Origin: Gonapodya sp. JEL0774
Lineage: Eukaryota
Direction of reading: 5' to 3'
Assembly: GCA_027604505.1 (NCBI GenBank)
Contig: JADIIX010000138.1
Coordinates: 1 to 59,964, forward strand
Length of the DNA stretch: 59,964 nt
Below, one piece after another: positions 3,884-59,964 of this stretch. The translations under genes were made by a program, and so were the position numbers. Numbering within the stretch: position 1 is the stretch's first letter; each line of letters opens with the position of its first letter. A model generated the notes under the pieces. The model made no database searches and was not told the origin of the DNA. It saw nothing but the letters and a program-made list of their open reading frames with translations.

Positions 3884-5052
3884 ATGTTTGACCCCAAATT
3901 GGCACGCATTCTGGAAGGAAAGCGTGTTCTTATTACCGGATGCTCATCTGTCAGTAATCCCTCCCTGTGAGTGATCCCCCCCCTTCCCTTTCTACTGCTT
4001 ACTTCCGCCAATAATTTCCATCTAGGGCATCGGTCGCGAACTCGTGAGGTTCTACGTCATCCACGGAGCCATCGTTTGCATCACATCTCCCGATTGGGAA
4101 ATGGCTGGCTTAGAAGAATCGCGAACAATCGCCATCGAATCACGGAAGCTGCTGAACCAAGGCCGGAGAAACGGAGGAAACGCTCAAGAATCAGTCTTTG
4201 ACCAAGAATCAGTCGTCATCTGTCATGCGTACGATGCTTCGGAAGAGGGGGCTTCTCGACGCTTGATTAGTACAGCGGTTTCTGTGCTCGGAGGGCTGGA
4301 CGTTGTCGTGCTGAATCATGGAATGACTACAACATTTCGAGTTATTGGATCTGGTCCAGAGAAGAGCATGGCGGCTGTGGAGAAGGTTGCCAAAGTCAAC
4401 TTCTTGTCAGTTGTAGAAGCTGCGTTGTTCGCGCTCCCCCACTTGCAAAGCTCAGCGGATAGTCGAGCAAAAACAGGAAAAGAAGGACTAAAAGGAACCG
4501 CTTTGAAACACTGGGTGGCAAGCCGGCTTGTGGCAATATCAAGCTTTTCCGCGAAAATCCCGAGCATCAAGGTGAATGCGTATGCAGCGGCGAAGGCTGC
4601 AATGACTCATTACTTCGCAAATTTGCGACTAGAACTCGACCATCATCGTGAGTCAGAATTTTGCGCGTTTGAAACTGACGTTAATCTAGTAACCCTCAAT
4701 GTGACGTCAACCAGCCAAGTACAAGAACCTTGTAACCCTCACTGTCCCCCTTCTTGGGCCTGTCTCAACCGCAACGTATCTTGGTGCAGTTGCAAAGGAC
4801 CACCCTACTCTGCTCAAATTCCCCGGCCTTCTAAAGCACCTAAGCCCGGCCAAAGCCGCTGAGCTAATTGTCATAACTGCAAGTAAAGGACTTAGAGAAC
4901 CCGCTCTTGGTACTCCCCGGATTGTGGTTCCAATTTGGGGGGCCGGCGGTTTTCTTTCCAGCGCATTGGAATGGGTTCTGATCCAGGTTCACGGAGGCTT
5001 TGAAGGAAGCGTCGCACCTTCGAAAGAAGAAGCGGCGAGGGGGGAGGATTGA
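3884..5052 (+). CDS. Short-chain dehydrogenase/reductase (11beta-HSD/DHRS7-like)
   Basis: MFDPKLARILEGKRVLITGCSS|GIGRE gives TGxxxGIG across intron 3950-4025; also LDVVVLNHG, VNF, catalytic S and YAAAK; second intron about 4648-4714; TGA at 5050-5052. Confidence 0.88.
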
Positions 5053-10208: not shown

Positions 10209-12077
10209 TCAATTTAATTTCTTTTCTACTGGTTGCACCCCCATTACATGCAAATAACTGACATGACCAGAGAACGCGTCCACAAAGCCCGACTTCAGTT
10301 CAGAGCCGCAGTCAGTATAAAAAATATCTAAGAATAAGTGGGGAAGGACAGGAAATTACCTTCATGTTGTACTTCAAGCCAAACTCTTTGCATGTGGCCA
10401 TAATGATGGGAGCAATCTCAGGGTAGTAGAGCTGGTTGACGCCCGGTAGCAAATGGTGAGCAGTTTGATAATTGAGCGCCCCACTTTAGTGGAGAGCAAC
10501 AGATTAGCAGAGACAGATCAGGTCACATTTGTGCGGGGGAAAGAGTTCGGAGAAATGAGTTCCAACTCACGTGAACAGTGTCCAAAATGTCGAATCGTGT
10601 GCATAATCCATTGCAGTTGCAACTTGCAGGGTCGCCCAGTCCTTGTCCATGGTGCCGTCCGCGTTGGGTGTAGGCCACGCCACATCTGATCGGAAGAGAG
10701 GACGAAAAGGAGGAGGAGGAGGATCGGTCTCGGAGTCGTGAGTTGTCGCCCTTGAGCGACGCCAATGTGGACTCACCTCCTGTATCGTGATTCACAGAAA
10801 ACAGATAGGCGAGATAATATGAAGCGACAATATCGGAGATGAAAATAAGGGGAATCGCCTTCACGCCGAGAAACTGTACGGGCAAGAGCCAACGATGGTA
10901 GGCGTAGACAATCTTCCCTCCCCAGAAAATGAGTGTGTCCAAAGTCCCCATTCCGTTGATGCGGATCGGACCACTCTTTTTGCTCCGATACACTTCTATA
11001 AAGTCGGTGACACGACTCATGGTTGCCATGACACCGTAGAGTGGAAGGAGTAGCAGTTCTTGGCCCTTGTGGGTAGGCTCCCACGGCTGAGACGGGGACA
11101 AGCGCCGGATGGGCATGGGACTGACGTCGGGGTCCGCTCCGTAAATGTTTGTGTACAGGTGCTGTATGCGGTGGAGTTGCGAATCGTGAGATGAGGGAAT
11201 GCAGGGGAGCAAAGGTGGGTAAGAAGCACCCGGGAACAACTCACGTGGCCCAGCGTGTGCTGGAAAGTCCAAACGTAGTGGGACACACCTGTGAAACTGT
11301 CGTAGAGTGCACCGCAGAGCTTCCACACCCATGGTTTCGAAGTGATGGCGAAGTGAGATGCGTCGTGAAGTATTGTGAGACCGATCTGCGCTTGTGCCAT
11401 TCCGGTAGCAGCCCCAACAATCACTCGTCCCCAGAAAGGTAAAGAAGCTTTGTAAGTCAAGTTCCATCCCAGAATACACATAAGAAGAATGAGAGTGTAT
11501 CGAGGAATCGCCAAGGGATGTACTCGAGGGTCACGACCGGTTTTCTTGAAATAGTCATCAACGCGGCCCTTGAGTGTCAACCAAAAGTTTGATGGAGTAG
11601 GGTACGTTGGAAGTTCGTTGGTTACCAGTTTGCCGACAACAAATTTCCTTTTGGCGAAGATTGAGTGTTTCAGTCTCTCTTCTGGGCCCTCCACCCCTTC
11701 ACACAGAGACGCCCGCACTTTAGAATCAGCTTCTTGTCTTCACCATGATATGTTTCGAAGAGCTGTGTTGCGTCCCTGCCTGCGCAGGCAAGAAGCTTGA
11801 AGTGGTTTGGGGGGAATCATGAGAGTTGCAGACCGAACGCATCCAAATCTCCTCACTCACAATGTCCTTTCCCCCTTCGGAGAAAGAAGAAAGAAGGAAT
11901 CAAGTTCAAGGTCTTTCCTGCTGCCGTTCGATCGCGAAAGTTTCTTCAGAAAGAGATACCTGGATGTCGCCGGGCAAAATGCGTCAAATCAAACACTTGT
12001 CCGCGTACGCCGACCCAGAGGGAGTCGGCGGTGTTGTGGCATGCAAGTTCCTGCCAGGTGTATGAGGGGTACTGCAT
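10209..12077 (-). CDS. Front-end fatty acid desaturase with N-terminal cytochrome b5 domain, delta-5 type
   Basis: MQYPSYTWQELACHNTADSLWVGVRGQVFDLTHFARRHPG|GKDI|LLACAGRDATQLFETYH (HPGG heme motif); His boxes HDASH, QHTLGH|HLYTNIYGADPDV and QTAHHLLP; closely resembles Mortierella alpina delta-5 desaturase as remembered; ends ...VEKKLN*. Confidence 0.92.
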
Positions 12078-12224
12078 TGCAGTATTTTGAATCACGTTAT
12101 GGCGGGTTGCGGGTCGGAGTGCCTCGCTCCGCAGTGTCTGCCTCCTTCGTGCTCAAGTAGTCGGCGGCAACCTCACCAAAAATAACACCAACAAACTAAC
12201 TCGCAGTCCACTTGCTTCCATCTG
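12078..12224. promoter_or_regulatory. Very short divergent intergenic region, putative shared bidirectional promoter of desaturase and elongase
   Basis: 147 bp between desaturase ATG (12077, minus) and elongase ATG (12225, plus). Confidence 0.55.
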
Positions 12225-13511
12225 ATGAACAACTTCCACGACCCCATTCCTGGATTGCTCAAGGGCACACTCTCCGTCATCAGCCAAGTTTTGTATCTTC
12301 GAAATGCAATCAAACAGAGAGTGATTGACCTCGCAACCACGATTGCGCCCGAAAGCTTCCAATCTGTAACCCGTTATGCAAATGGACTGAAATCGAATCA
12401 CGCGTCGATATCCACTCCATTGATGGACCCGGTATGTCCTCCTTCTAATCTATGACGCGTTATGCGAAAAACTGAAATCGAATCACGCGACGATGTCCAC
12501 TCCATTGATGGACCCGGCATGTCCTTCTTCTACGGATTCGTTCATGATTCTCTCAGTTTGACGCCCTGGTCATTCCCCTGTGTTATCTGAGCGCTGTCAA
12601 AATTGGAAACTACATCATGCGAGACAGAAAACCGTACCAAATGCGAGCGTTCGGACTCGCGCACAATTTGTTTTCAATGCTACTCAGTCTCTACATGGCC
12701 ATAGCAGTATTCCACGAGGCATTTGTGGTACAAAAGCACACACTGATTGGAGGCAACGTGGTGGACGAATCGACACGGGGGGGAAGAGGGGCGGAACTGT
12801 TTTGGGTGTTTTACTTCTCAAAGGTGCGCCTGACTCTTTCTCCCTTTTTTCATTCATAACATAACGATGAATCAATGACCCACAGATACCAGAGTTTAAC
12901 GACACCCTGATCATGGTGTTAAAAAAGAGCACTCGCCAAATAACGTTCTTGCATACTTACCATCATGCGTCGATGATCTACATTTGCTGGATGGGATGTT
13001 GGATAGCTCCAGGTGGCGATTGCCTCTTTAATTGCTTTATGAACTCTTTCGTCCACGTGGTCATGTATGGTAGGTGTCTGATATGATCTCCTCCCCCTAC
13101 CCCAGTTCGAGGTAACCGTCACCCTCACTTCCCTCACTCTATTTTAATATTCTTGCTGGAATGCAATTCACCCAATGCATTCAGGTTATTACTTTTTCAG
13201 CATGGTCGGAGTGAAACAAGTTGCGTGGATCCGTCCTTACATCACCAGCCTGCAAATCTTCCAGTTCTCTTCGATACTCGTTCGAGAGATATACAGTATA
13301 TCGTGCTACCTTCTTGGCAAACCTACTGGTTTCCCATTGATCGTGGTTTTCATTGAAACAGCCTGTATGTTTCTTTCGTTCTTCCTTTAGTCTTTGAGTT
13401 ACACTCCTTCATCTTGCAGACAATGTGTCAATGCTGGTACTGTTCATGCAATTCTATCGTAGTGCGTACACGACTCGCAAAGTCTCCAATAAGAGCTCGA
13501 AGGATCAATAG
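12225..13511 (+). CDS. GNS1/SUR4 (ELO) family fatty acid elongase, delta-6 PUFA elongase (GLELO) type
   Basis: Exons 12225-12431, 12557-12823, 12886-13069, 13185-13364, 13420-13511. Motifs PLMDP|F, FYFSK|IPEFNDT, RQITFLHTYHH, APGGD, NSFVHVVMYGYYF, YITSLQIFQF and a Lys-rich C-terminus. Confidence 0.93.
12372..12532 (+). repeat. Imperfect tandem duplication (about 75 bp, 2 copies) spanning the elongase exon 1/intron 1 junction
   Basis: 12372-12447 and 12458-12532 share cgttatgc...actgaaatcgaatcacgcg.cgat.tccactccattgatggacccgg(t/c)atgtcct.cttcta. Confidence 0.9.
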
Positions 13512-13524
13512 ATATGCTACTCTA

Positions 13525-15962
13525 CTATTCCATGTCCCGACCGTCACGTGCACGCCTCTGCTTCATCCCCACCGTCCCATCACCTTCGTTCCCTTTCCCG
13601 TTCTCCCTGACGGTTATTGTTCTCGCCTGTCCAAGTCCGATACTTTTCTGCACTTCGAGCATTAGTCCCTCCAACCCGCCTAGTTTCAGAATCACCAGTA
13701 ATACCAGGAGACCCACATGACCAGCGTAATGGAGCGCTCCGTACACGGCGGAGATTTTATCCCACGTCAGAAGGATGTAGGATATTGCCAAGTAGTTCAT
13801 GATGAGCTGAGTGGCAGCCCAGGTCAAAACATCGTACATTGGTTTAAATTTTGCGTACGGGGAGGGTGGCACAAACAAGGGTCGAAAAGCGCGCCTAAAT
13901 GACTTTGCAACGATTGTGAGGGGCACGCCAGAAACAAAGAATACTTTGTGAAGTAAAGGGACACATGATTGATATTGTTCTCGGGACATGAAGATCCAGC
14001 GAAGCTCACCATAATACCCGAAATGAAATCCATGCCAAAACGCAGATGATGCAAATGTAGCTACAGTTGCCCATTCGGAGGGCACTTCCTTTTGCGCGTT
14101 GGTGCCGGGGTCCTTGACAAGCTTTGTAAACCTGAGGTACACAAAATTTTTGAGCCACGTTTGGGTGTGTACGTTCCAGCTGTCGATATAGCCGCGAGGG
14201 GTCGTAGCAAGTTCGAGGCCGAAGAAACGGAGCTGGTTACCTCGGGTCCTGAGAGAGGCAACCGTCAAGCATCGCGCAGCAACCAATTGTAGGAAGGTCC
14301 GACGGAGTTGGAACGAGGAGAAAAGGTTACCGTTCAGTGCAGAGAGCGGGCGAACGTAGAGAGATAGATAATCAACGCAGACCAGGATTTTTTGTCTTCT
14401 TCCGTCCCTCACCAAAGTGGCTTCCCATTTGTATCAAACCCGTCGAACGCAATGCCACACATGATACAAGCGACCTCGGAGATTTTCCACCCAAGGTAAT
14501 ATTTGAGCCGGTGTGAGAAACCCGCCAAGAGGACATATCCAAAACTACAACGAGTAGACTTCAATTCCAAAGCGATTCAGATTAAGTAACAGCAATCTTA
14601 CCGCCGCGGCAGGCTCCAGTTTCTAAATGATGGTTGCAGACATCCGTGGTATGTAACTGGCTCTAGCGCGAAGTGCCCCCCGGCGTAAGCGAGGACGACC
14701 AAAAAGCATTGAAAAGCCGGGAAGGCGGACGAAAGGGTGGGGGGGACGAGCTGGTGGAGTTGCAGGAGTCAATAGATGTCAGGCGGCCTTCCCTGCTTTG
14801 CCGTAACGTGCCTTGCCCTCGACAAAATCTTCGACTACGGTGTAGTCGAATGCAGGGCCAACGATGATTCCAGCAAAGAAGTGGGTGTAGCCAAAGAAGT
14901 TGAGCAATGTGGGTTGAGATTTGATGGCGCGGGGAGCAAACGAGGGATGAAGGGACTGGGTATCAAGGGGTATTATTGGCTCGGAGGCCAAGAAAAGAGA
15001 ACCAGGAATGAACCTACCGCGGGTGGACGTGTCCCGTCGTGCAAACTCCACGCATAGCTCTGTGTTCGTGAGATTCGCGAAGGAAAGGTAAAAAAGGGAC
15101 AAGAACAATAAATTCGGGAAGACGGACAACGCCCAGAGATGGCAGTTTTCCGGTCGGCATGGTCATTGGAGTAGTTGGTATCTCAGATTGTTGAAAATTT
15201 TGCTGAAGAAGCTTGCTCCTGCTCACCGAAATTCGAATGGTGAGAACCATGAAGGGTGAGGTGAAGTCAAACGTCTTGAAGTCCTCTATGCGGGTAAAGA
15301 TTTGCGCGTGGAGGTGGCTATTCAAACGAGACTGATTCAATAACCATGGAAACTTCTAACAAAGTTATCAGTTCTTCTCCAACTGTCCTAATCCAACCCC
15401 CTTGGAGGACTTCAGAATCGGTATTTGTATCGTTGAGATTCCAAAACTGGGTCGAGGCCTCCGGAATGCATTCCATAACAATGCTACGCGCCAGATGATG
15501 CTCTCAAATCTTTTCGCTAGGTGCAAAAAGTTCCGGCATCGTTGAGGAACTACTCACAAGTACGCCAGGTGCAACAACGCCATACAATGAATGAGCACGG
15601 GCATCCACTTTCGATCCCGGAAAGTACTTGATATGAAGTAGGTGTAGAACGTGGCAGTAACTACGTGGAGGTATTCCGTGTATCCCCAGACGTTTATGAG
15701 CACCATCGCGGTCGTGGCGACCGCTGAAAGAAACGGGCGATTCCACACAGAGAGCACCAGAATGAAGCTCCAATTCCAGGCATGCAACAACCCGCTTTCG
15801 CCAGAACAACTCACAGAACATATCCCTGATCCATCTGGTCGTGGGCAATAAACGCGAACACACTGCGACGGGATACGCCGCGACGATAGCGAGAACGAGC
15901 AGAATTCCATCAGAATTGATGCCAAGAGATGCGGCGATCCAATCCGCAAAAGTATCGAGCAT
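13525..15962 (-). CDS. ALE1: MBOAT family lysophospholipid acyltransferase (Ale1/LPCAT-like)
   Basis: Multi-exon hydrophobic protein with FDFTSPFMVLTIRIS, PTLLNFFGYTHFFAGIIVGPAFDY, SWNVHTQTWLKNFVYLR and SAFWHGFHFGYY (catalytic His); starts MLDTFADWIA at 15962. Confidence 0.92.
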
Positions 15963-47238: not shown

Positions 47239-48917
47239 TCACAGTTTTGCTTGTCGAGACTTGGTCACTCCATAAAACGCGTTGCCTGGAAGGTAGTATG
47301 GATGGTTTAAAGTGAGAGCAAAGGCAACCGACATTTTCCATCCATCACGCACCTGGATTGGGAACCGGGTATTCCACAAATGAGCTCGCTCCAGCGTCCA
47401 TGCAATACTTTTTCATTTTCGATGGACCCCATGCTGCACCTAGGCCAGCACCATGGTTGCCAAGCGATTGTGTCATACCTTTGTCGTAAAAATGCCAGCG
47501 TGAGTGGGTTCACTTCCCACCTCTCTATGTCGAATTGCTACAGACTCACAGTGCATTGTCGAGACACTGTACAGAAAGGTGCCTCCCATGTTGAGATTTT
47601 CCTCGAGGTTATCGGAACAGCGCGGTTCCATCATTATGAAAACACCGTCGGGTTTCACCGCCGCTAGAATCTCCTTAAGACCTCTCAAGGGGTCGGGAAG
47701 ATCGTGGATGACATCGAATGTGAAGACCACGTCGTATGCGTCCCGTTCCACGAGATCATACACCGACCGAACCTCGGCAGAGCAGTTCTTGCCCTCGAGT
47801 CCTGCTTGGCGGATCTTATTTTGGGCTTGCGAGATGGAGAAGGAATCGAGGTCGACGCCTTTGAAAGTAGAGTTGGGGAAAGCCTCGGCCATTCTGACAG
47901 AGAGTCATGATAAACATTCTTGACTTCCTCTGCAAGACAAGTCCGTGTCTATTAGAACACTCACGCGATGATTCCAGCCGCTGCACCACACCCAACGTCC
48001 AGAACCTTGATGCCGCGCTTAAGTTTCTCCACGAGCCCCGGGATGGCCGGCAGCCATTTGCGGACGAGCACACTCTTCATGGTCCCCTCATGCGTCCTCG
48101 CCATTCCCCTGGGCAGCTCCGGTCCGAATTCTCTAAAAGTCACGCCGCCTCCGTTTTTGAACGCCTCGGCGAGTTTGGGAACCACGGACCAGTACGACGC
48201 AAGGTTCTCGCATTGGCCGCCGTAGAAGAGGGGGTGGGGAGGTTTACCACTTTCCCAGTCGTCCACGAGGATCAGTGCGTGTTCTTCTGGCTGTGTTGCA
48301 CGGACTGTGGTGAGTATTTACAGCTTAACCACAAATGTGTCAACTCACTAGCTTTTGTGGGACCGATCGATTATGGCGAAAACAAAAGGGAGGCCACAGG
48401 GGGAGGAGAATCCACTGAGTCATTTCTCTTGAAAGATGATTCACGCGAATAATAACAAGGTACCTCGAACGTTCCCAGTTCCTTTCCGGGCACCGGGTGG
48501 TACAGCACGATACCTCCCGCTGCAACCGCGGAGAGTGATTCTCTGAGGTATCGCTCCTTTAAAACGGAGGGTAGATCGTTTTGAAAGCAGAATCTGCACG
48601 TCCGAATGCGTGTGAGGGAGAATTCACCTGCAATCCCGTCTTCTTAGCCAACGCTTCCACCGACATGGGCCCTTCACCCTTCATGGCCTTAAACACTCCA
48701 ACACGATCGAGCACGCTCACAACTGTGGGGGAAGAAATGTAGCGTGGTCACGAAATCAGAATTCACAAGGGCACACTTAACTCCTTTCTGGGAGCACAGT
48801 ACGAGACAACTTTCCTGCCATCATGGTGGTATATGTTTGGAGCATGTTAAAGTATTGGAAGAAAGGCCGCACATTTGCGTTCTTTGGAGCAGGCCCGCCT
48901 GTCGGGGGGACGTAGCT
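47239..48917 (-). CDS. Class I SAM-dependent methyltransferase with N-terminal winged-helix domain (Rv2258c-like); 5' end unresolved
   Basis: LDRVGVFKAM...SVEALAKKTGLQ|ERYLRE, VPKLAEAFKNGGGV, WLPAIPGLVEKLKRGIKVLDVGCG, MAEAFPNSTFKGVD, TFDVIHDLPDP, LYSVSTMHC|MTQSL...GAGLGAAWG; ends ...KSRQAKL*. Confidence 0.88.
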
Positions 48918-54862: not shown

Positions 54863-55055
54863 TTCCGATCCGATTAGGAAATTTAGAGAGAAGACAATGA
54901 ATAAATGAGAGACACTCGGGGCACTGAGTCATATTGTGGGAGTGGACCTTGCACGGGGAGGGAGGGAGGGAGGGCGATCTTCGCAAAAGGGAAGACAGCA
55001 GGGAGTTTGTGGGATGGAATAGAAACGCGAGTTTGAAAGAGAAGAGTGAGGAAGG

Positions 55056-58000
55056 ATGGGACCAGAAGGAGAAGAAGAAGCAGAAGAGCGGAGCATAATT
55101 GCCATCGATCTTGACTGGTGGGTTGGGAGGGGGGGGGGTGGAGGGGAGAGTGGGGAGGGAGGGGAGGAGGAGGGCGGAGACAGACAGGGGAGGGAATGGG
55201 AGACAGTGGAGGGAGAATCAGATGAGGCGATGCAGCAGGCTGGGTGTGTGGTGACTCACGGGTGTCTCCCGCTCCCCGCCTCACACCCCCTCACACACAC
55301 CCCCGCCACTCTCCCTGCGCAGCTTCTACGCCCAAGGTGCGATCGATCGATCGATCCCTGCGTCCCTGGGCACCTCTCACCGCCCTTGTCCCCTCTTGTG
55401 CCCCCTTGTTCCCCCCGTGTCCTCCCCGGTCCACCCCCCAATCACCCATTCCCCCCAACCACCCCTACCACCCCTTCCCCCCTTCCCCCCATCACCACCC
55501 ACCGATCCCAGTGGAAGAACTCAGAAACCCCGCTCTCAGGGGGAAACCACTCGGCGTCAAGCAGAAGTCGATATTCGCAACAGTCAACTAGTCCGTACTC
55601 CCGTACTCCTCCATCCCGTCGCCCCCCTTCTAACACCACTCTCACCCCTCTTCTTTCCTTCCTCCTTTCCTCCGCCGCAGCCCCCGCTCCCCCCGCTCCG
55701 GGGGGGAGCGGGAGTGGCCAGGCCCCACCCNNNNNNNNNNTCCTCCCCATCCCCCTCTCCCCCCTCTCCCTCTCAAAGCGTGAGTTGCCATTCCACCTCA
55801 TACGTTCCCCCACTGTCTCCTTTGTCGCGGTTCCCGTGCCCAGTCAAGCACCACAGTTCGTGCACTGCGTTCCTCTGACCCACTCACTCCCCCCCTCCCT
55901 TTCCCCCCCTCTCCCCTCTGCCCCACACGCCGCGCCCCCCCCCACCCCCCAACCCCAAAACCCCCAACCCCACAACCTCACCCAGCCCGCCCGCCACCTC
56001 GGCATCTCCAAACTCTCCTCCATCCGCTCCGCACTCGCCATATGCCCCCACATGCACATCGTCGACGGCGAAGACCTCACGCCCTACCGGCGGGCCAGTC
56101 GCCTGGTCCTCCACACCGTCAGGGCTGCGGTTGGTGCCGGGGGCGGGGATGGAGCTGGAGCTGCAGGAGAGAATGCCGGAGGCGGAGCCAGGGCTGATGG
56201 GCGTGATGGAGGTGTGCAGGTCGTGGGGAGTGGGAGTGGGAGTGGGCGTGGACAAAACACACGGAGCGGTGTCGGTGGGGATTCGGATGAGTTTGAGTTT
56301 GGGGACGATGATGAGGGGGATTCAACCCATTTTGGGCATTCGGGTGATGGTGATGGTTCGCCCCGTTTTGGAGATCGGGGGCCCTCCGACACCACTTCCC
56401 CTTCCCCTTCCACCTCCTACTTTGGCACATGCCCCGTCGAACGCCAGGGCCTCGACGAACTGTTTCTGGACGTGTCCGACCTGGTGCGCGTGCACAGGGA
56501 CAAACTGCGGCGGGGGTTGGTCGAGAGGAGGGGTGGGGTTGGGGTTGGGGTTTGGNNNNNNNNNNGGGGCTCACGTGCAGAGCGATGGAGCGGCCGCCGC
56601 CGGAGATGGATCGGGTCACCACCCCCACCAACACCCTCCCGCCCCACCACCACCCACCCTCCAACTCTTCTTCGCCCTGCCCACCTTCACCCTCCCCTCG
56701 GGCAAAGTGTCCCGCGGGTTCTGGTACGCGGCGGACCAGGTGGCAGGGGAGGTGTGGGCGGCGGGGTCGGCCGAGGGGGAGGGAGGGGGACAGGAACAGG
56801 AACAGGAACAGGAAAAGGAACAGCAGAACGGGGTGGGTGCTCAGCAGGGTGAGCACACGCACGCACACGCACACGCACACCGACCCACACCCCCCACCCC
56901 CGTCCCCGGCCCCGTTCCCGTCCCGGCACCGGTGGTCCCCCCCTCCCTCCTCCTGGCCTCCCACCTGGCCTCCCACCTGCGCCATCTCATCCACACCGTA
57001 TGCGGTTACACCACCTCTGCGGGCATCTCTGTGTCCAAACTGGTGGCCAAATTGGCCTCCGAGCACCGCAAACCCGCGGCGCAGACCGTGGTCACCAACG
57101 ACGCGGTACAGCGGTTCGTGGCCACCCACGAGGTGGGCAGGATCAGAGGCGTGGGCGGGAAGATGAGGAGGATTTTGCAGGACTTGGTAAGGGAATACGG
57201 GGGGGTGGGCGGGGGCCCCGAGTCGGGTGGGGGATGGGGATGGGACCACCCCCAGGCCCACCCCATCACCCCATCACTCGCCGTGCCCCTCCTCATGTCC
57301 CTCCCCGCCGCAACCCTCGCGCACCATGGCGTCCCTCCCACGCTGGTGTCCCTCCTGCGCGGCGAGGACGCGACCCCGGTGGTTCCCACGGGTGCGGCCA
57401 AGACGGTGTCGGTGGAGGATTCTTTCGCCAAGGGGGTGGGCTTGGGGGGGTGGGCGGAGATGGACAGTAGGGTGGAAGGGCTGTGTCACAAGTGGTTGGA
57501 ACGGTGCGAGGAGGAGGAGACCGATGTGGACGTGCACGTGGACACGGCGAGCACGGAGGCGGGGGCGGCGCGGTACGCCGCCGGGTCGACACCTGTGTGG
57601 CGCCGCCTCCCAACCTCCCTCCGCGTGTCCATCGCGCTCCGCAGGCCCTCGGACCACCCCCACCTCTACCCCTCCCGCGTGTCCCTGTCGCTCACCCCAC
57701 CTCTGCCCATCTTCACCCTCACCACCCCGCTGTCCCACCGGGCCGCCCTGATGGCCAAAGTGTGCGCTGCGGCGGTGAAAAAGCTGGCGGGAAAGCACGG
57801 TAGGTCGGTGGAGGATGTGGTGGTGGTGAACGTGGCAGGCGTGGGGTGGAAGGAGGTGAAGCGGGGCGGGGGCGGGGGCACAGCGGGAGCCGGGGCGAGG
57901 GCGAGGGGGATAGGAGAGTTTTTTTTGGTCAGGGGGCCGCCGCCGGCGGGGGGGCCGGAGCGGGAGCGGTGGTCTGGGAGTTGGGACGCACATGGGGAAC

Positions 58001-58722
58001 TCGGCACGCCATCGGGGGGGAGGAACCCAGTGGTACCTGCACCACCTCCACCACCGAACCCCGATCCCACCTCCACTCCCACGTGCGCCACACGACCACC
58101 ACCACCACCACCACCACCACCGCCACCCGACGAAGACATATCCGACTCTGAATCCGGACCCCCTCCGTTCTCGCCCGGTCTCGACCCGGCCACACCGCAC
58201 ACGACGACCGTCCCCGTCCCCGTGGCGAGCCCCGAGCCGCCAAAGGGGATGCGGCCCCTGCACAAGATTCCGGGGATGGTGGGGCGGGTGGGCGGGGGCG
58301 GGGGTGGTGGTGCGGGGGCGGCGGGGAAGGGGAAGGGGATGGGTGGTGGGGTCGGCGGGACAAAGTCCCCTGGAACGCCGACCCCGCCACCACCACCGAC
58401 AACGGGAGGACCAGGACAAGGGCCAACACTGACACCGGCACTGGCACCGGCCCCGGGACGTGCGGTGTTGTCCCGACTTGGGATATCGGACGCCTCGGTT
58501 TTTGCAGAGTTGCCCGAAGATGTGCGCGCAGAGATTGTGCGAGGCGGGTGGGTGCAAGGGGGCGGGGTGGCGGCGGGGACGGTGGGGACTGTGGGCGCGG
58601 GAACGGGTGGACCGAGGGGGAAGAAGAGGAAGGCGGAGATGGGCAAGGGTGGGGCGGGTGCGGGTGCGGGGGGTTTGGCGGGTGGCCCGATGGATCGGTT
58701 TGTGAAGAGGAAGGCGGTGTAG
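55056..58722 (+). CDS. POLI: Y-family translesion DNA polymerase, iota type
   Basis: RSIIAIDLD|.FYAQ|VEELRNPALRGKPLGVKQK, GEDLTPYR, VERQGLDELFLDVS, GYTTSAGISVSKLVAKLASEHRKP..QT, IRGVGGK, KTVSVEDSF, and C-terminal UBM-like SVFAELPEDVRAEI. Interrupted by two N gaps. Confidence 0.88.
55731..55740. other. Assembly gap (10 N) in a POLI intron
   Basis: Run of n in the sequence. Confidence 0.99.
56556..56565. other. Assembly gap (10 N) in POLI coding sequence; the reading frame changes across it
   Basis: Run of n; conserved motifs lie in ORF 55056.. before the gap and ORF 56131.. after it. Confidence 0.95.
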
Positions 58723-59964
58723 GTGGGTGCAGGTTGCGGAATGGTGGGGACGGAATGGGTGCAAGGGAGTGTTGCAGAAGTGGTTGCATAATTGCATGCG
58801 TTATTGATTTAGTTACATAAATTATTTTATGGTGGGGTTTGTTCATCTTTGGGCGTGGTGTATGACAAATTTGTGGGAATTGTCAGTTTATTCACGATAC
58901 GTTGGGTGCTGAGTTGGTTGCGTGAGTGAGTACGCTCAGGAATGTAATTGTTCGTTGTTGGGCGGCCCCGCAATGGTTGGACACAAAATTAATTTATAGC
59001 GGAAATTACGCAGAGAGACAGTGCTCTATCAGTTCTGCCTACAGTCACCCCCGCTCGCCCCCTCTTCCCTCGTCCGGCGTCGAAACTGGCGCACTCCTCA
59101 TGAGGGACCGTCGGACTGCCCGTTGCCGACAAAAGAAGCTTCGGGCTTCTCAGCTGGGTCTGCCGGCTGGATCGTTTTAATAGAATGTTTCAGATCCTGT
59201 CCCGGACAGCTCGCAAAGAAACAATGGTTGGATGTGGGCCACCCAGGCTCCTTGCAGGGAGCAAGTGGGGGGCAGACAACCCATCCCGTGATCAAACCGA
59301 CGCCATGAAACGCTGAGGGTCCGAACTTGGAGCTTAGAACTGCGCACAATCGACGTGAAATCAATCACGTCACTGATGCGCATTCTAAATACCTGGTCGC
59401 AGCGTTCTCAGACTGATCAGACCCCGTGTACGAATCAGACAAAGGGGGGAAGGGGCAATACAATAATATGAGGGTCACTTTGAGCCTGCGAAACTCCCGT
59501 CGCTTGTGACAGAACAAAGTGTGTAAAAGGTTACAGGGAGCAGGGATGGGTCGACTGCCTGAAGCTTTGCTGGTGCCCCTCTTGCCTTGCTGCCAAAGCT
59601 CATCAGCACCTCGCGACTTCATCAACGTGAAACTCTCCCGATTCGCGCATCAATGGACGCCAATCGTGCCACCAAGCTCACTTCGCAACGTGCCGCACCG
59701 ACCATCACGGGATCCCAGGAGATCTTTGACGAGGAGGACGAGGAGGACGTACCTGGGACAGCCGGGGGAGCGTTACCAGTGCTCGAAAAAGTTGCGGTCA
59801 AGGGATGGAAAGAAAGGACAGAGAGGGAGGTGAGCGCAGTACGGTCGGGTGGGATCACAGGTGTATGTAAGCAAGCGAAGCTGACAGATGCATCCCTGTG
59901 ATTAATAAGTACCAGTCGGAGACAAGACTCGGCCATGTTGAGCACACGCTTTCATTGGTACTTC

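What the first reader, a model, noticed from the sequence alone, without database searches (positions are those of the whole stretch)
10209..15962. Candidate long-chain PUFA (arachidonate) gene cluster: delta-5 desaturase + delta-6-type elongase + lysophospholipid acyltransferase
Seen: three adjacent genes of unrelated families with nothing between them; desaturase and elongase are head-to-head (147 bp between ATGs), elongase and MBOAT tail-to-tail (13 bp between stops). Known: GLELO-type elongases turn 18:3n-6-CoA into 20:3n-6-CoA, fungal delta-5 desaturases are generally considered to act on phospholipid-linked 20:3, and LPCAT exchanges acyl groups between CoA and phosphatidylcholine pools, the known bottleneck in PUFA engineering. 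Inference: this is a co-regulated GLA->DGLA->ARA (or SDA->EPA) module that includes its own acyl shuttle. I do not know of a described eukaryotic cluster of this kind; aerobic desaturase/elongase genes are usually dispersed. No delta-6 or delta-12 desaturase is in the window.
Basis: partly seen in the sequence, partly recalled or inferred. Interest (0 to 1): 0.88.

Follow-up and report, generated by a model that had tools for sequence, protein, structure and literature searches.

The report
Gonapodya head-to-head desaturase–elongase gene pair
In an aquatic fungus (Gonapodya), genes for two likely consecutive steps of arachidonic-acid synthesis sit head-to-head and are also neighbours in a second species, an arrangement not found in the other fungi checked, while the third gene (a membrane-lipid acyltransferase) is probably an ordinary neighbour because its best match lies elsewhere in that second species.

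Summary
Three intact genes lie at 10209-15962: a cytochrome-b5-fused front-end desaturase (8 exons, 439 aa), an ELO elongase (5 exons, 309 aa) and an Ale1/LPCAT3-type MBOAT (9 exons, 509 aa). The ATG gap is 147 bp and the stop gap 13 bp. The database names the host Gonapodya sp. JEL0774. In G. prolifera the desaturase and elongase matches are consecutive accessions (KXS18080/KXS18081) on a 597-kb scaffold; the best MBOAT match (KXS12727) is on a 299-kb scaffold. In a published 183-proteome table, 1 of 69 delta-5-class accessions is consecutive to a delta-6-elongase accession, and it is this pair. So the conserved unit is two genes and, so far, Gonapodya-only. A clustered eukaryotic arachidonate pathway is already described in Perkinsus marinus. 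There are no expression or activity data. Verdict: new variant of a known kind; the three-gene module with its own acyl shuttle has about 22% probability.

The parts
10209..12077 (-). Cytochrome-b5-fused front-end desaturase, delta-5 class. Exons 12077-11960, 11874-11861 (14-nt microexon), 11795-11719, 11647-11245, 11161-10777, 10685-10571, 10483-10360, 10292-10209; 439 aa. Motifs HPGG, HDASH, QHTLGHH, QTAHH.
   Evidence: GenBank model HDU93_001546 (P0001, 427 aa) reads into intron 7 and lacks the last exon, which G. prolifera KXS18080 has. 70% identical to KXS18080.
12078..12224 (.). 147-bp head-to-head intergenic region; it must hold both 5' UTRs; likely shared promoter (inferred)
   Evidence: for length. 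No transcript data. No perfect palindrome of 6-12 nt.
12225..13511 (+). ELO/GNS1-SUR4 elongase, delta-6-elongase subfamily, long-branched paralogue. Exons 12225-12431, 12557-12823, 12886-13069, 13185-13364, 13420-13511; 309 aa. Motifs KxxEFxDT, HTYHH, NSFVHVVMYGYY, TxxQxxQ.
   Evidence: Exon 3 is 90% identical to G. prolifera KXS18081. Trees.
12386..12532 (+). Two copies of a 62-nt direct repeat (94% identical): the end of elongase exon 1 duplicated into intron 1. The second copy has GC in place of the GT donor.
13525..15962 (-). MBOAT lysophospholipid acyltransferase of Ale1/LPCAT3 type. Exons 15962-15815, 15723-15558, 15317-15227, 15059-15018, 14955-14812, 14750-14602, 14544-14413, 14248-14010, 13943-13525; GC-AG intron 14811-14751; 509 aa; WN and FWHG motifs. 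Flanks the pair here but probably not part of the conserved unit.
   Evidence: Best match G. prolifera KXS12727 is on a different scaffold.

Best explanation
The conserved unit is a head-to-head pair of intact genes, a delta-5-class desaturase and a delta-6-class elongase, which likely share the 147-bp promoter and are predicted to carry out two consecutive steps (18:3n-6 to 20:3n-6 to arachidonate, or 18:4n-3 to 20:4n-3 to EPA), while the adjacent MBOAT is likely the housekeeping Ale1-type acyltransferase that happens to flank the pair in this species. Proposed mechanism: an unlinked delta-6 desaturase supplies GLA (inferred; G. prolifera has candidate KXS11408). The elongase condenses GLA-CoA with malonyl-CoA (inferred from family). 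DGLA-CoA is esterified to lyso-PC by an Ale1-type enzyme wherever its gene lies (family knowledge). The desaturase adds the delta-5 bond (inferred from subfamily and motifs). Shown: gene structure, families, linkage in two species, no such linkage in 65 other listed fungal delta-5 entries. Not shown: co-expression, substrates, products.
For: KXS18080 and KXS18081 are consecutive and both on a 597,307-bp contig; KXS12727 is on a 299,398-bp contig. The linkage persists although the desaturases are only 70% identical. 0 of 65 non-Gonapodya delta-5-class accessions lie within 10 numbers of a delta-6-elongase accession, so the pair is not ancient fungal synteny. PMC13161914 supplement: KXS18080 is in the same column as OAQ35213, which PMC10629195 names D5, and KXS18081 is in the delta-6-elongase column. 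ALE1 is listed with no loss and no duplication in the lineages surveyed by PMC10629195, which fits a housekeeping gene. The MBOAT's 5' end points away from the pair, about 3.7 kb from the shared region. A second G. prolifera delta-6-class elongase (KXS10419) is consecutive to a wax-ester synthase (KXS10418); P about 0.025 for at least one such adjacency, which hints that elongase paralogues get paired in this genus.
Against: Only one relative could be tested, and only through accession numbers and contig lengths; orientation in G. prolifera was not seen. Background gene-order conservation between the two species was not measured, so the pair may be retained passively. One search returned 1 hit among 1899 candidates and did not return the window's own MBOAT (one search likewise missed the window's own elongase), so a second G. 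prolifera MBOAT beside the pair cannot be excluded. G. prolifera has 4 delta-5-class and 4 delta-6-class paralogues, and the paired elongase has a long branch (1.91 against 0.63 for P0027), so its substrate may differ. Shared 7-mers between the pair's intergenic region and the MBOAT upstream region were slightly above contig background (36 against 17.8, p 0.027), but 6-mers (p 0.14) and 8-mers (p 0.07) were not and the background was mostly coding.
Confidence: 0.45

Rival explanations
1. A three-gene module: the MBOAT was recruited next to the pair (or lost from it in G. prolifera) and channels elongase product, DGLA-CoA, into phosphatidylcholine for the desaturase.
For: It is the exact activity needed between the two steps; substrate dichotomy between desaturases and elongases is a documented bottleneck (PMC4973703 passages). 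Yeast Ale1 is strong in the forward, acylating direction (PMC4700060 abstract), which is the direction needed here. Chance is about 0.014% for this one gene and 0.7% for any listed lipid gene. Stops are 13 bp apart. Weak 7-mer excess upstream.
Against: The best G. prolifera match is on another scaffold, 5,353 accession numbers from KXS18080. It cannot share the promoter. No MBOAT lay near any of 31 metagenome elongase loci of 4 kb or more, or 41 viral ones; these are distant relatives. The locus was picked out of a very large scan.
Confidence: 0.22
2. The pair is a real unit, but made of diverged paralogues with other substrates: for example LA to 20:2 then delta-5 desaturation to a non-methylene-interrupted acid (sciadonic type), desaturation first then elongation, or C20 to C22 extension.
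For: The elongase is 37-42% identical to chytrid delta-6-type elongases, whereas paralogue P0027 is 46-52% identical to the same ones. It departs from them at conserved columns (HHASM against HHSSI; DCLFNC against EAYFSA). It falls outside the 17-row clade holding the chytrid elongases (93/83). No delta-6 gene is in the window.
Against: Its top-scoring relatives are still mostly chytrid delta-6-type elongases. In one search it sits inside an unresolved 19-row group (90/84), and sisterhood with P0027 is not rejected (p-AU 0.101). The desaturase is closer to the delta-5-like set (37-42%) than to the desaturase half of fusion P0072 (30%).
Confidence: 0.18
3. All three adjacencies are accidents of rearrangement in a compact genome; the pair survives in both species only through ordinary local gene-order conservation.
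For: There are 4 x 4 paralogues; the other three delta-5-class and three elongase genes of G. prolifera are not linked to each other. No other listed fungus clusters them. The rest of the contig is a mix of unrelated genes.
Against: Chance is about 0.2% per genome. The pair is head-to-head at 147 bp. Linkage is kept while the next gene is apparently not. There is a second elongase-acyltransferase adjacency in G. prolifera.
Confidence: 0.15

Closest known systems
Perkinsus marinus arachidonate cluster (delta-9 elongating FAE1-like KCS, delta-8 and delta-5 desaturases; Venegas-Caleron et al. 2007). Seen only as a reference title and a passage in PMC2868825; the paper itself is not held.
   Same: Eukaryotic aerobic desaturase and elongase genes for arachidonate physically clustered
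   Different: Perkinsus: three co-transcribed genes, delta-8 pathway, plant-like FAE1 enzyme. Here: divergent intron-rich genes, ELO-family elongase, probable delta-6 pathway with the delta-6 step unlinked.
Mortierellomycota, Glomeromycota and Blastocladiomycota delta-5 desaturase and delta-6 elongase (e.g. Linnemannia elongata OAQ35213 and OAQ32306)
   Same: Same subfamilies in the PMC13161914 table
   Different: Unlinked by accession number in those fungi. The Gonapodya elongase is a long-branched paralogue. No direct alignment to the M. alpina enzymes was possible.
Yeast Ale1 / vertebrate LPCAT3 (MBOAT5; PDB 7f3x, 7ewt)
   Same: Full-length match of the G. prolifera counterpart, E 7e-28, including the WHG histidine
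   Different: Acyl preference unknown; adjacency to PUFA genes seen only in this contig
Viral elongase + front-end desaturase neighbours (IMG/VR loci L114, L118 and others) and the elongase::b5-desaturase fusion protein P0072
   Same: Elongase and desaturase brought together: 9 of 41 viral elongase loci have a desaturase in the fetched flank; in L118 they are 6 bp apart; P0072 fuses them
   Different: Only 24-31% identical to the Gonapodya desaturase, less than a sponge protein is (42%), so these are independent arrangements and not the source. No MBOAT.

Membership tests
Front-end (cytochrome b5-fused) desaturase, delta-5 subfamily | N-terminal cytochrome b5 with HPGG | tested here: met
   PF00173 E 5e-22; HPGG in P0001
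Front-end (cytochrome b5-fused) desaturase, delta-5 subfamily | Three histidine boxes, the third beginning with Q (motif definition recalled) | tested here: met
   HDASH, QHTLGHH, QTAHH
Front-end (cytochrome b5-fused) desaturase, delta-5 subfamily | Groups with characterised fungal delta-5 enzymes | tested here: inconclusive
   Indirect only: the G. prolifera match shares the FADS1 column with OAQ35213. No characterised enzyme was available to align.
Front-end (cytochrome b5-fused) desaturase, delta-5 subfamily | Converts 20:3n-6 to 20:4n-6 | not testable with these tools
   Needs an assay
GLELO-type delta-6 PUFA elongase | ELO family with KxxExxDT, HxxHH, NxxxHxxMYxYY, TxxQxxQ (motif list recalled) | tested here: met
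   PF01151; alignment; ELOVL7 match E 9e-30
GLELO-type delta-6 PUFA elongase | Orthology with the chytrid/Mortierella delta-6 elongase clade | tested here: inconclusive
   Long branch; outside the clade, unresolved, p-AU 0.101 with P0027. A closer-fitting paralogue exists. The published table does list KXS18081 in the subfamily.
GLELO-type delta-6 PUFA elongase | Elongates GLA/SDA-CoA | not testable with these tools
   Needs an assay
Ale1/LPCAT3-type MBOAT | MBOAT domain with catalytic His in WHG and an upstream Asn; full-length similarity to LPCAT3 | tested here: met
Ale1/LPCAT3-type MBOAT | Lyso-PC acylation with PUFA-CoA | not testable with these tools
   Needs an assay
Three-gene metabolic gene cluster | Three adjacent non-homologous pathway genes | tested here: met
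Three-gene metabolic gene cluster | Linkage of all three conserved in relatives | tested here: not met
   Pair conserved, best MBOAT match on another scaffold in G. prolifera; one relative only
Three-gene metabolic gene cluster | Co-expression | not testable with these tools

The most novel reading that the evidence does not exclude
Gonapodya is assembling a fungal primary-metabolism cluster for C20 PUFA: a conserved bidirectional desaturase-elongase pair of diverged paralogues that in JEL0774 has recruited a PUFA-preferring lysophospholipid acyltransferase, giving a naturally matched elongate-shuttle-desaturate cassette, possibly with unusual products.
Probability: 0.22. Interest if true: 0.68.

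Novelty: new variant of a known kind. Interest (0 to 1): 0.42.

Why it matters
Aerobic PUFA genes are dispersed in the other fungi checked (0 of 65 delta-5 entries adjacent to a delta-6 elongase). A conserved head-to-head pair would be a rare fungal case of clustering in membrane-lipid metabolism and would give a compact candidate bidirectional promoter. If the acyltransferase is matched to the pair, it addresses the CoA/phospholipid substrate-dichotomy bottleneck in arachidonate and EPA engineering and can be tested directly in yeast. It also flags monoblepharids as possible C20-PUFA producers; my searches found no fatty-acid profile for them (0 papers; 3 listed, none read).

Tried and rejected
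No whole genome is held for this window, so paralogue counts in JEL0774 and flanking synteny could not be examined directly. Sequencing runs: none was listed; this is no evidence on expression. Prokaryote genome scan with the desaturase alignment: 75 pattern matches, none confirmed. Viral scan with P0006 alone: none confirmed. Metagenome elongase loci: 0 of 31 loci of 4 kb or more (out of 79 loci) had a desaturase or MBOAT hit; most loci are short and distant, so this is weak. Viral origin of the pair rejected on identity. The window's methyltransferase at 47.5-48.6 kb could not be tied to G. prolifera KXS12718 as a synteny anchor: no PF02353 hit. The SDR ORF at 4026-4859 best matches 11-beta-HSD-like proteins among solved structures, so nothing marks it as the elongation ketoreductase. 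The decarboxylase at 1.8-3 kb is glutamate-decarboxylase-like. Desaturase-elongase linkage in other chytrids: for six elongase accessions, no other table entry shared the nine-to-ten-number block, and 0 of 95 FADS3-column entries read lie within 30 numbers of a delta-6 elongase. ALE1 accession lists in the PMC10629195 supplement were located but not extracted. The first tree run timed out. An ESM Atlas search of P0002 gave only generic b5-desaturase clusters; a second Atlas request did not complete. NCBIfam gave nothing above cut-off. Promoter k-mer sharing was inconclusive. Literature searches for a described fungal cluster showed none in their listings; subscription journals and bioRxiv supplements are not covered.
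Full report
Observation. The window is a eukaryotic contig. The desaturase exon search returned a 99%-identical protein labelled HDU93_001546 of Gonapodya sp. JEL0774 on a 59,964-bp contig. Three-frame reading, Pfam on 14 ORF pieces and tblastn of stored proteins show a b5-fused desaturase (-), an ELO elongase (+) and an MBOAT (-). A coordinate check gives 8, 5 and 9 exons, no internal stops, 18 GT-AG introns and one GC-AG, and 439, 309 and 509 aa; the gaps are 147 bp between ATGs and 13 bp between stops. These models are not confirmed by transcripts. Of 288 other ORFs scanned none hit a desaturase, elongase or MBOAT. The other genes are a glutamate-decarboxylase-like gene, an SDR, a carboxylesterase, Chs7, a Na/Ca exchanger, an SPX transporter, myotubularin, Nop10, a weak CTU2 hit, a methyltransferase, an EamA transporter and weak IMS hits.

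Identity of the parts. The desaturase has HPGG, HDASH, QHTLGHH and QTAHH and is 70% identical to G. prolifera KXS18080, annotated 'delta-5 fatty acid desaturase'. The elongase's match is KXS18081 (exon 3, 90%). The supplement of PMC13161914 (I read parts 12-17 of 29 and search rows; of the main text, passages only) puts these in its FADS1 and delta-6-elongase columns; the FADS1 column also holds OAQ35213, called D5 in PMC10629195 (passages). The MBOAT's match KXS12727 (54%) aligns over its length to LPCAT3 (E 7e-28). All activities are inferred.

The elongase is not the most canonical copy. JEL0774 has another, HDU93_003564, on a 205,892-bp contig, 46-52% identical to two chytrid delta-6-type elongases against 39-42% for KXS18081. 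In a 37-row tree (chosen from the 136 rows) KXS18081 has a branch of 1.91 against 0.63 and lies outside a 17-row clade (93/83) holding the chytrid enzymes. In a 25-row tree that leaves out its long-branch partner P0039 and 11 other rows it falls in an unresolved group, and sisterhood with HDU93_003564 is not rejected (p-AU 0.101). G. prolifera has four delta-5-class, four delta-6-elongase-class and at least one FADS3-column (delta-6-like, inferred) gene in the table. The conventional pathway is therefore plausible, but the paired copies may be specialised.

Linkage. KXS18080 and KXS18081 are consecutive and both lie on a 597,307-bp contig; KXS12727 lies on a 299,398-bp contig. The pair is thus conserved and the MBOAT apparently is not. 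Limits: this rests on accession order and contig length; orientation in G. prolifera was not seen; one search covered 421-2000 aa proteins, returned 1 hit of 1899 candidates and missed the window's own MBOAT, so a second copy is possible. Across the table, transcribed by eye, 1 of 69 delta-5-class accessions lies within 10 numbers of any of 78 delta-6-elongase accessions, and it is this pair; the next closest is 28 apart; 0 of 95 FADS3-column entries read lie within 30. Accession order is a proxy and several of these assemblies may be fragmented. Background synteny between the two Gonapodya species could not be measured.

Chance. With 4 x 4 paralogues and an assumed 13,000-14,000 genes (the accessions seen span 13,686), the pair arises about 0.2% of the time. 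A given single-copy gene flanks a pair 0.014% of the time, and any of 49 listed lipid genes 0.7%. These numbers were computed after selection from a large scan, so they do not establish the triple, but they keep it alive. Among the 49 G. prolifera lipid accessions I had, the only two cross-family adjacent pairs both involve delta-6-class elongases; the second is KXS10418 (wax-ester synthase) with KXS10419 (P about 0.025 for at least one).

Elsewhere. A Physocladia obscura model (KAJ3106505, 7,559-bp contig) joins a desaturase C-terminal fragment to a delta-6-type elongase; the fragment barely matches KXS18080, so it is another desaturase class or a mis-merged model. P0072 is an elongase::b5-desaturase fusion from an unnamed source. 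9 of 41 viral elongase loci carry a desaturase in the flank and none an MBOAT; 0 of 31 longer metagenome loci carry either. The viral desaturases are 24-31% identical to KXS18080, so they are not the source.

Mechanism. Most likely (0.45) the two genes are divergently transcribed from the 147-bp region and perform GLA-CoA to DGLA-CoA and DGLA to arachidonate (or the n-3 equivalents), with an Ale1-type enzyme moving DGLA onto phosphatidylcholine as a general service. That hand-over needs the forward reaction, in which yeast Ale1 is strong while its reverse reaction is very weak (PMC4700060 abstract). The need arises from substrate dichotomy (PMC4973703 passages); whether this desaturase uses phospholipid or CoA substrates is unknown. 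Rivals: a true three-gene module (0.22), a real pair with other substrates (0.18), accident (0.15).

Known precedent and verdict. [quoted passage not shown] A eukaryotic PUFA cluster is therefore not new. I found no description of the Gonapodya pair or of a fungal equivalent in the listings, which do not cover subscription journals. PMC3234268 (passages) gave M. alpina gene counts but nothing on clustering, and the HGT preprint 10.1101/2021.12.02.471044 (passages; supplements not seen) did not mention these genes. Verdict: real, intact, a new fungal variant of a known kind; interest 0.42.

Noticed in passing
window 10209-10359: GenBank model HDU93_001546 (427 aa) reads into intron 7 and omits the last exon; the G. 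prolifera protein supports a 439-aa product. The window's elongase and MBOAT proteins were not returned and may be unannotated.
   Followed up: yes
window 12386-12532: 62-nt tandem-like duplication of the end of elongase exon 1 into intron 1 (94% identical); the copy has a GC in place of the GT donor and could allow alternative splicing.
   Followed up: partly
G. prolifera KXS10418/KXS10419 (PMC13161914 supplement): A wax-ester synthase/DGAT accession is consecutive to another delta-6-class elongase; WSD1 KXS19401 and DGAT2 KXS19405 are 4 apart.
   Followed up: partly
P0026 (Physocladia obscura KAJ3106505.1): Gene model joining a front-end desaturase C-terminal fragment to a delta-6-type elongase: either a same-strand desaturase-elongase neighbour pair in a chytrid or an annotation merge.
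   Followed up: partly
P0072; P0050: Unnamed proteins: a 679-aa ELO + cytochrome b5 + desaturase fusion, and an 1100-aa double-ELO + patatin protein.
   Followed up: no
L114:444-2336; L118:3655-5547; L089, L091, L093, L094, L101, L113, L119: Viral contigs with an elongase and a front-end desaturase close together; tandem and 6 bp apart in L118.
   Followed up: partly
window 47476-48643: Methyltransferase with a weak Rv2258c-like winged-HTH hit, an architecture named from a bacterial protein.
   Followed up: partly
window 55050-58800: GC-rich (63-69%) end of the contig with long overlapping ORFs, weak IMS (Y-family polymerase) hits and two 10-base N gaps; possibly a different or mis-joined segment.
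   Followed up: no
PMC13161914 text against its table: The text calls the delta-6-elongase subfamily specific to Glomeromycota and Mortierellomycota, but the table column also lists four G. prolifera accessions.
   Followed up: no
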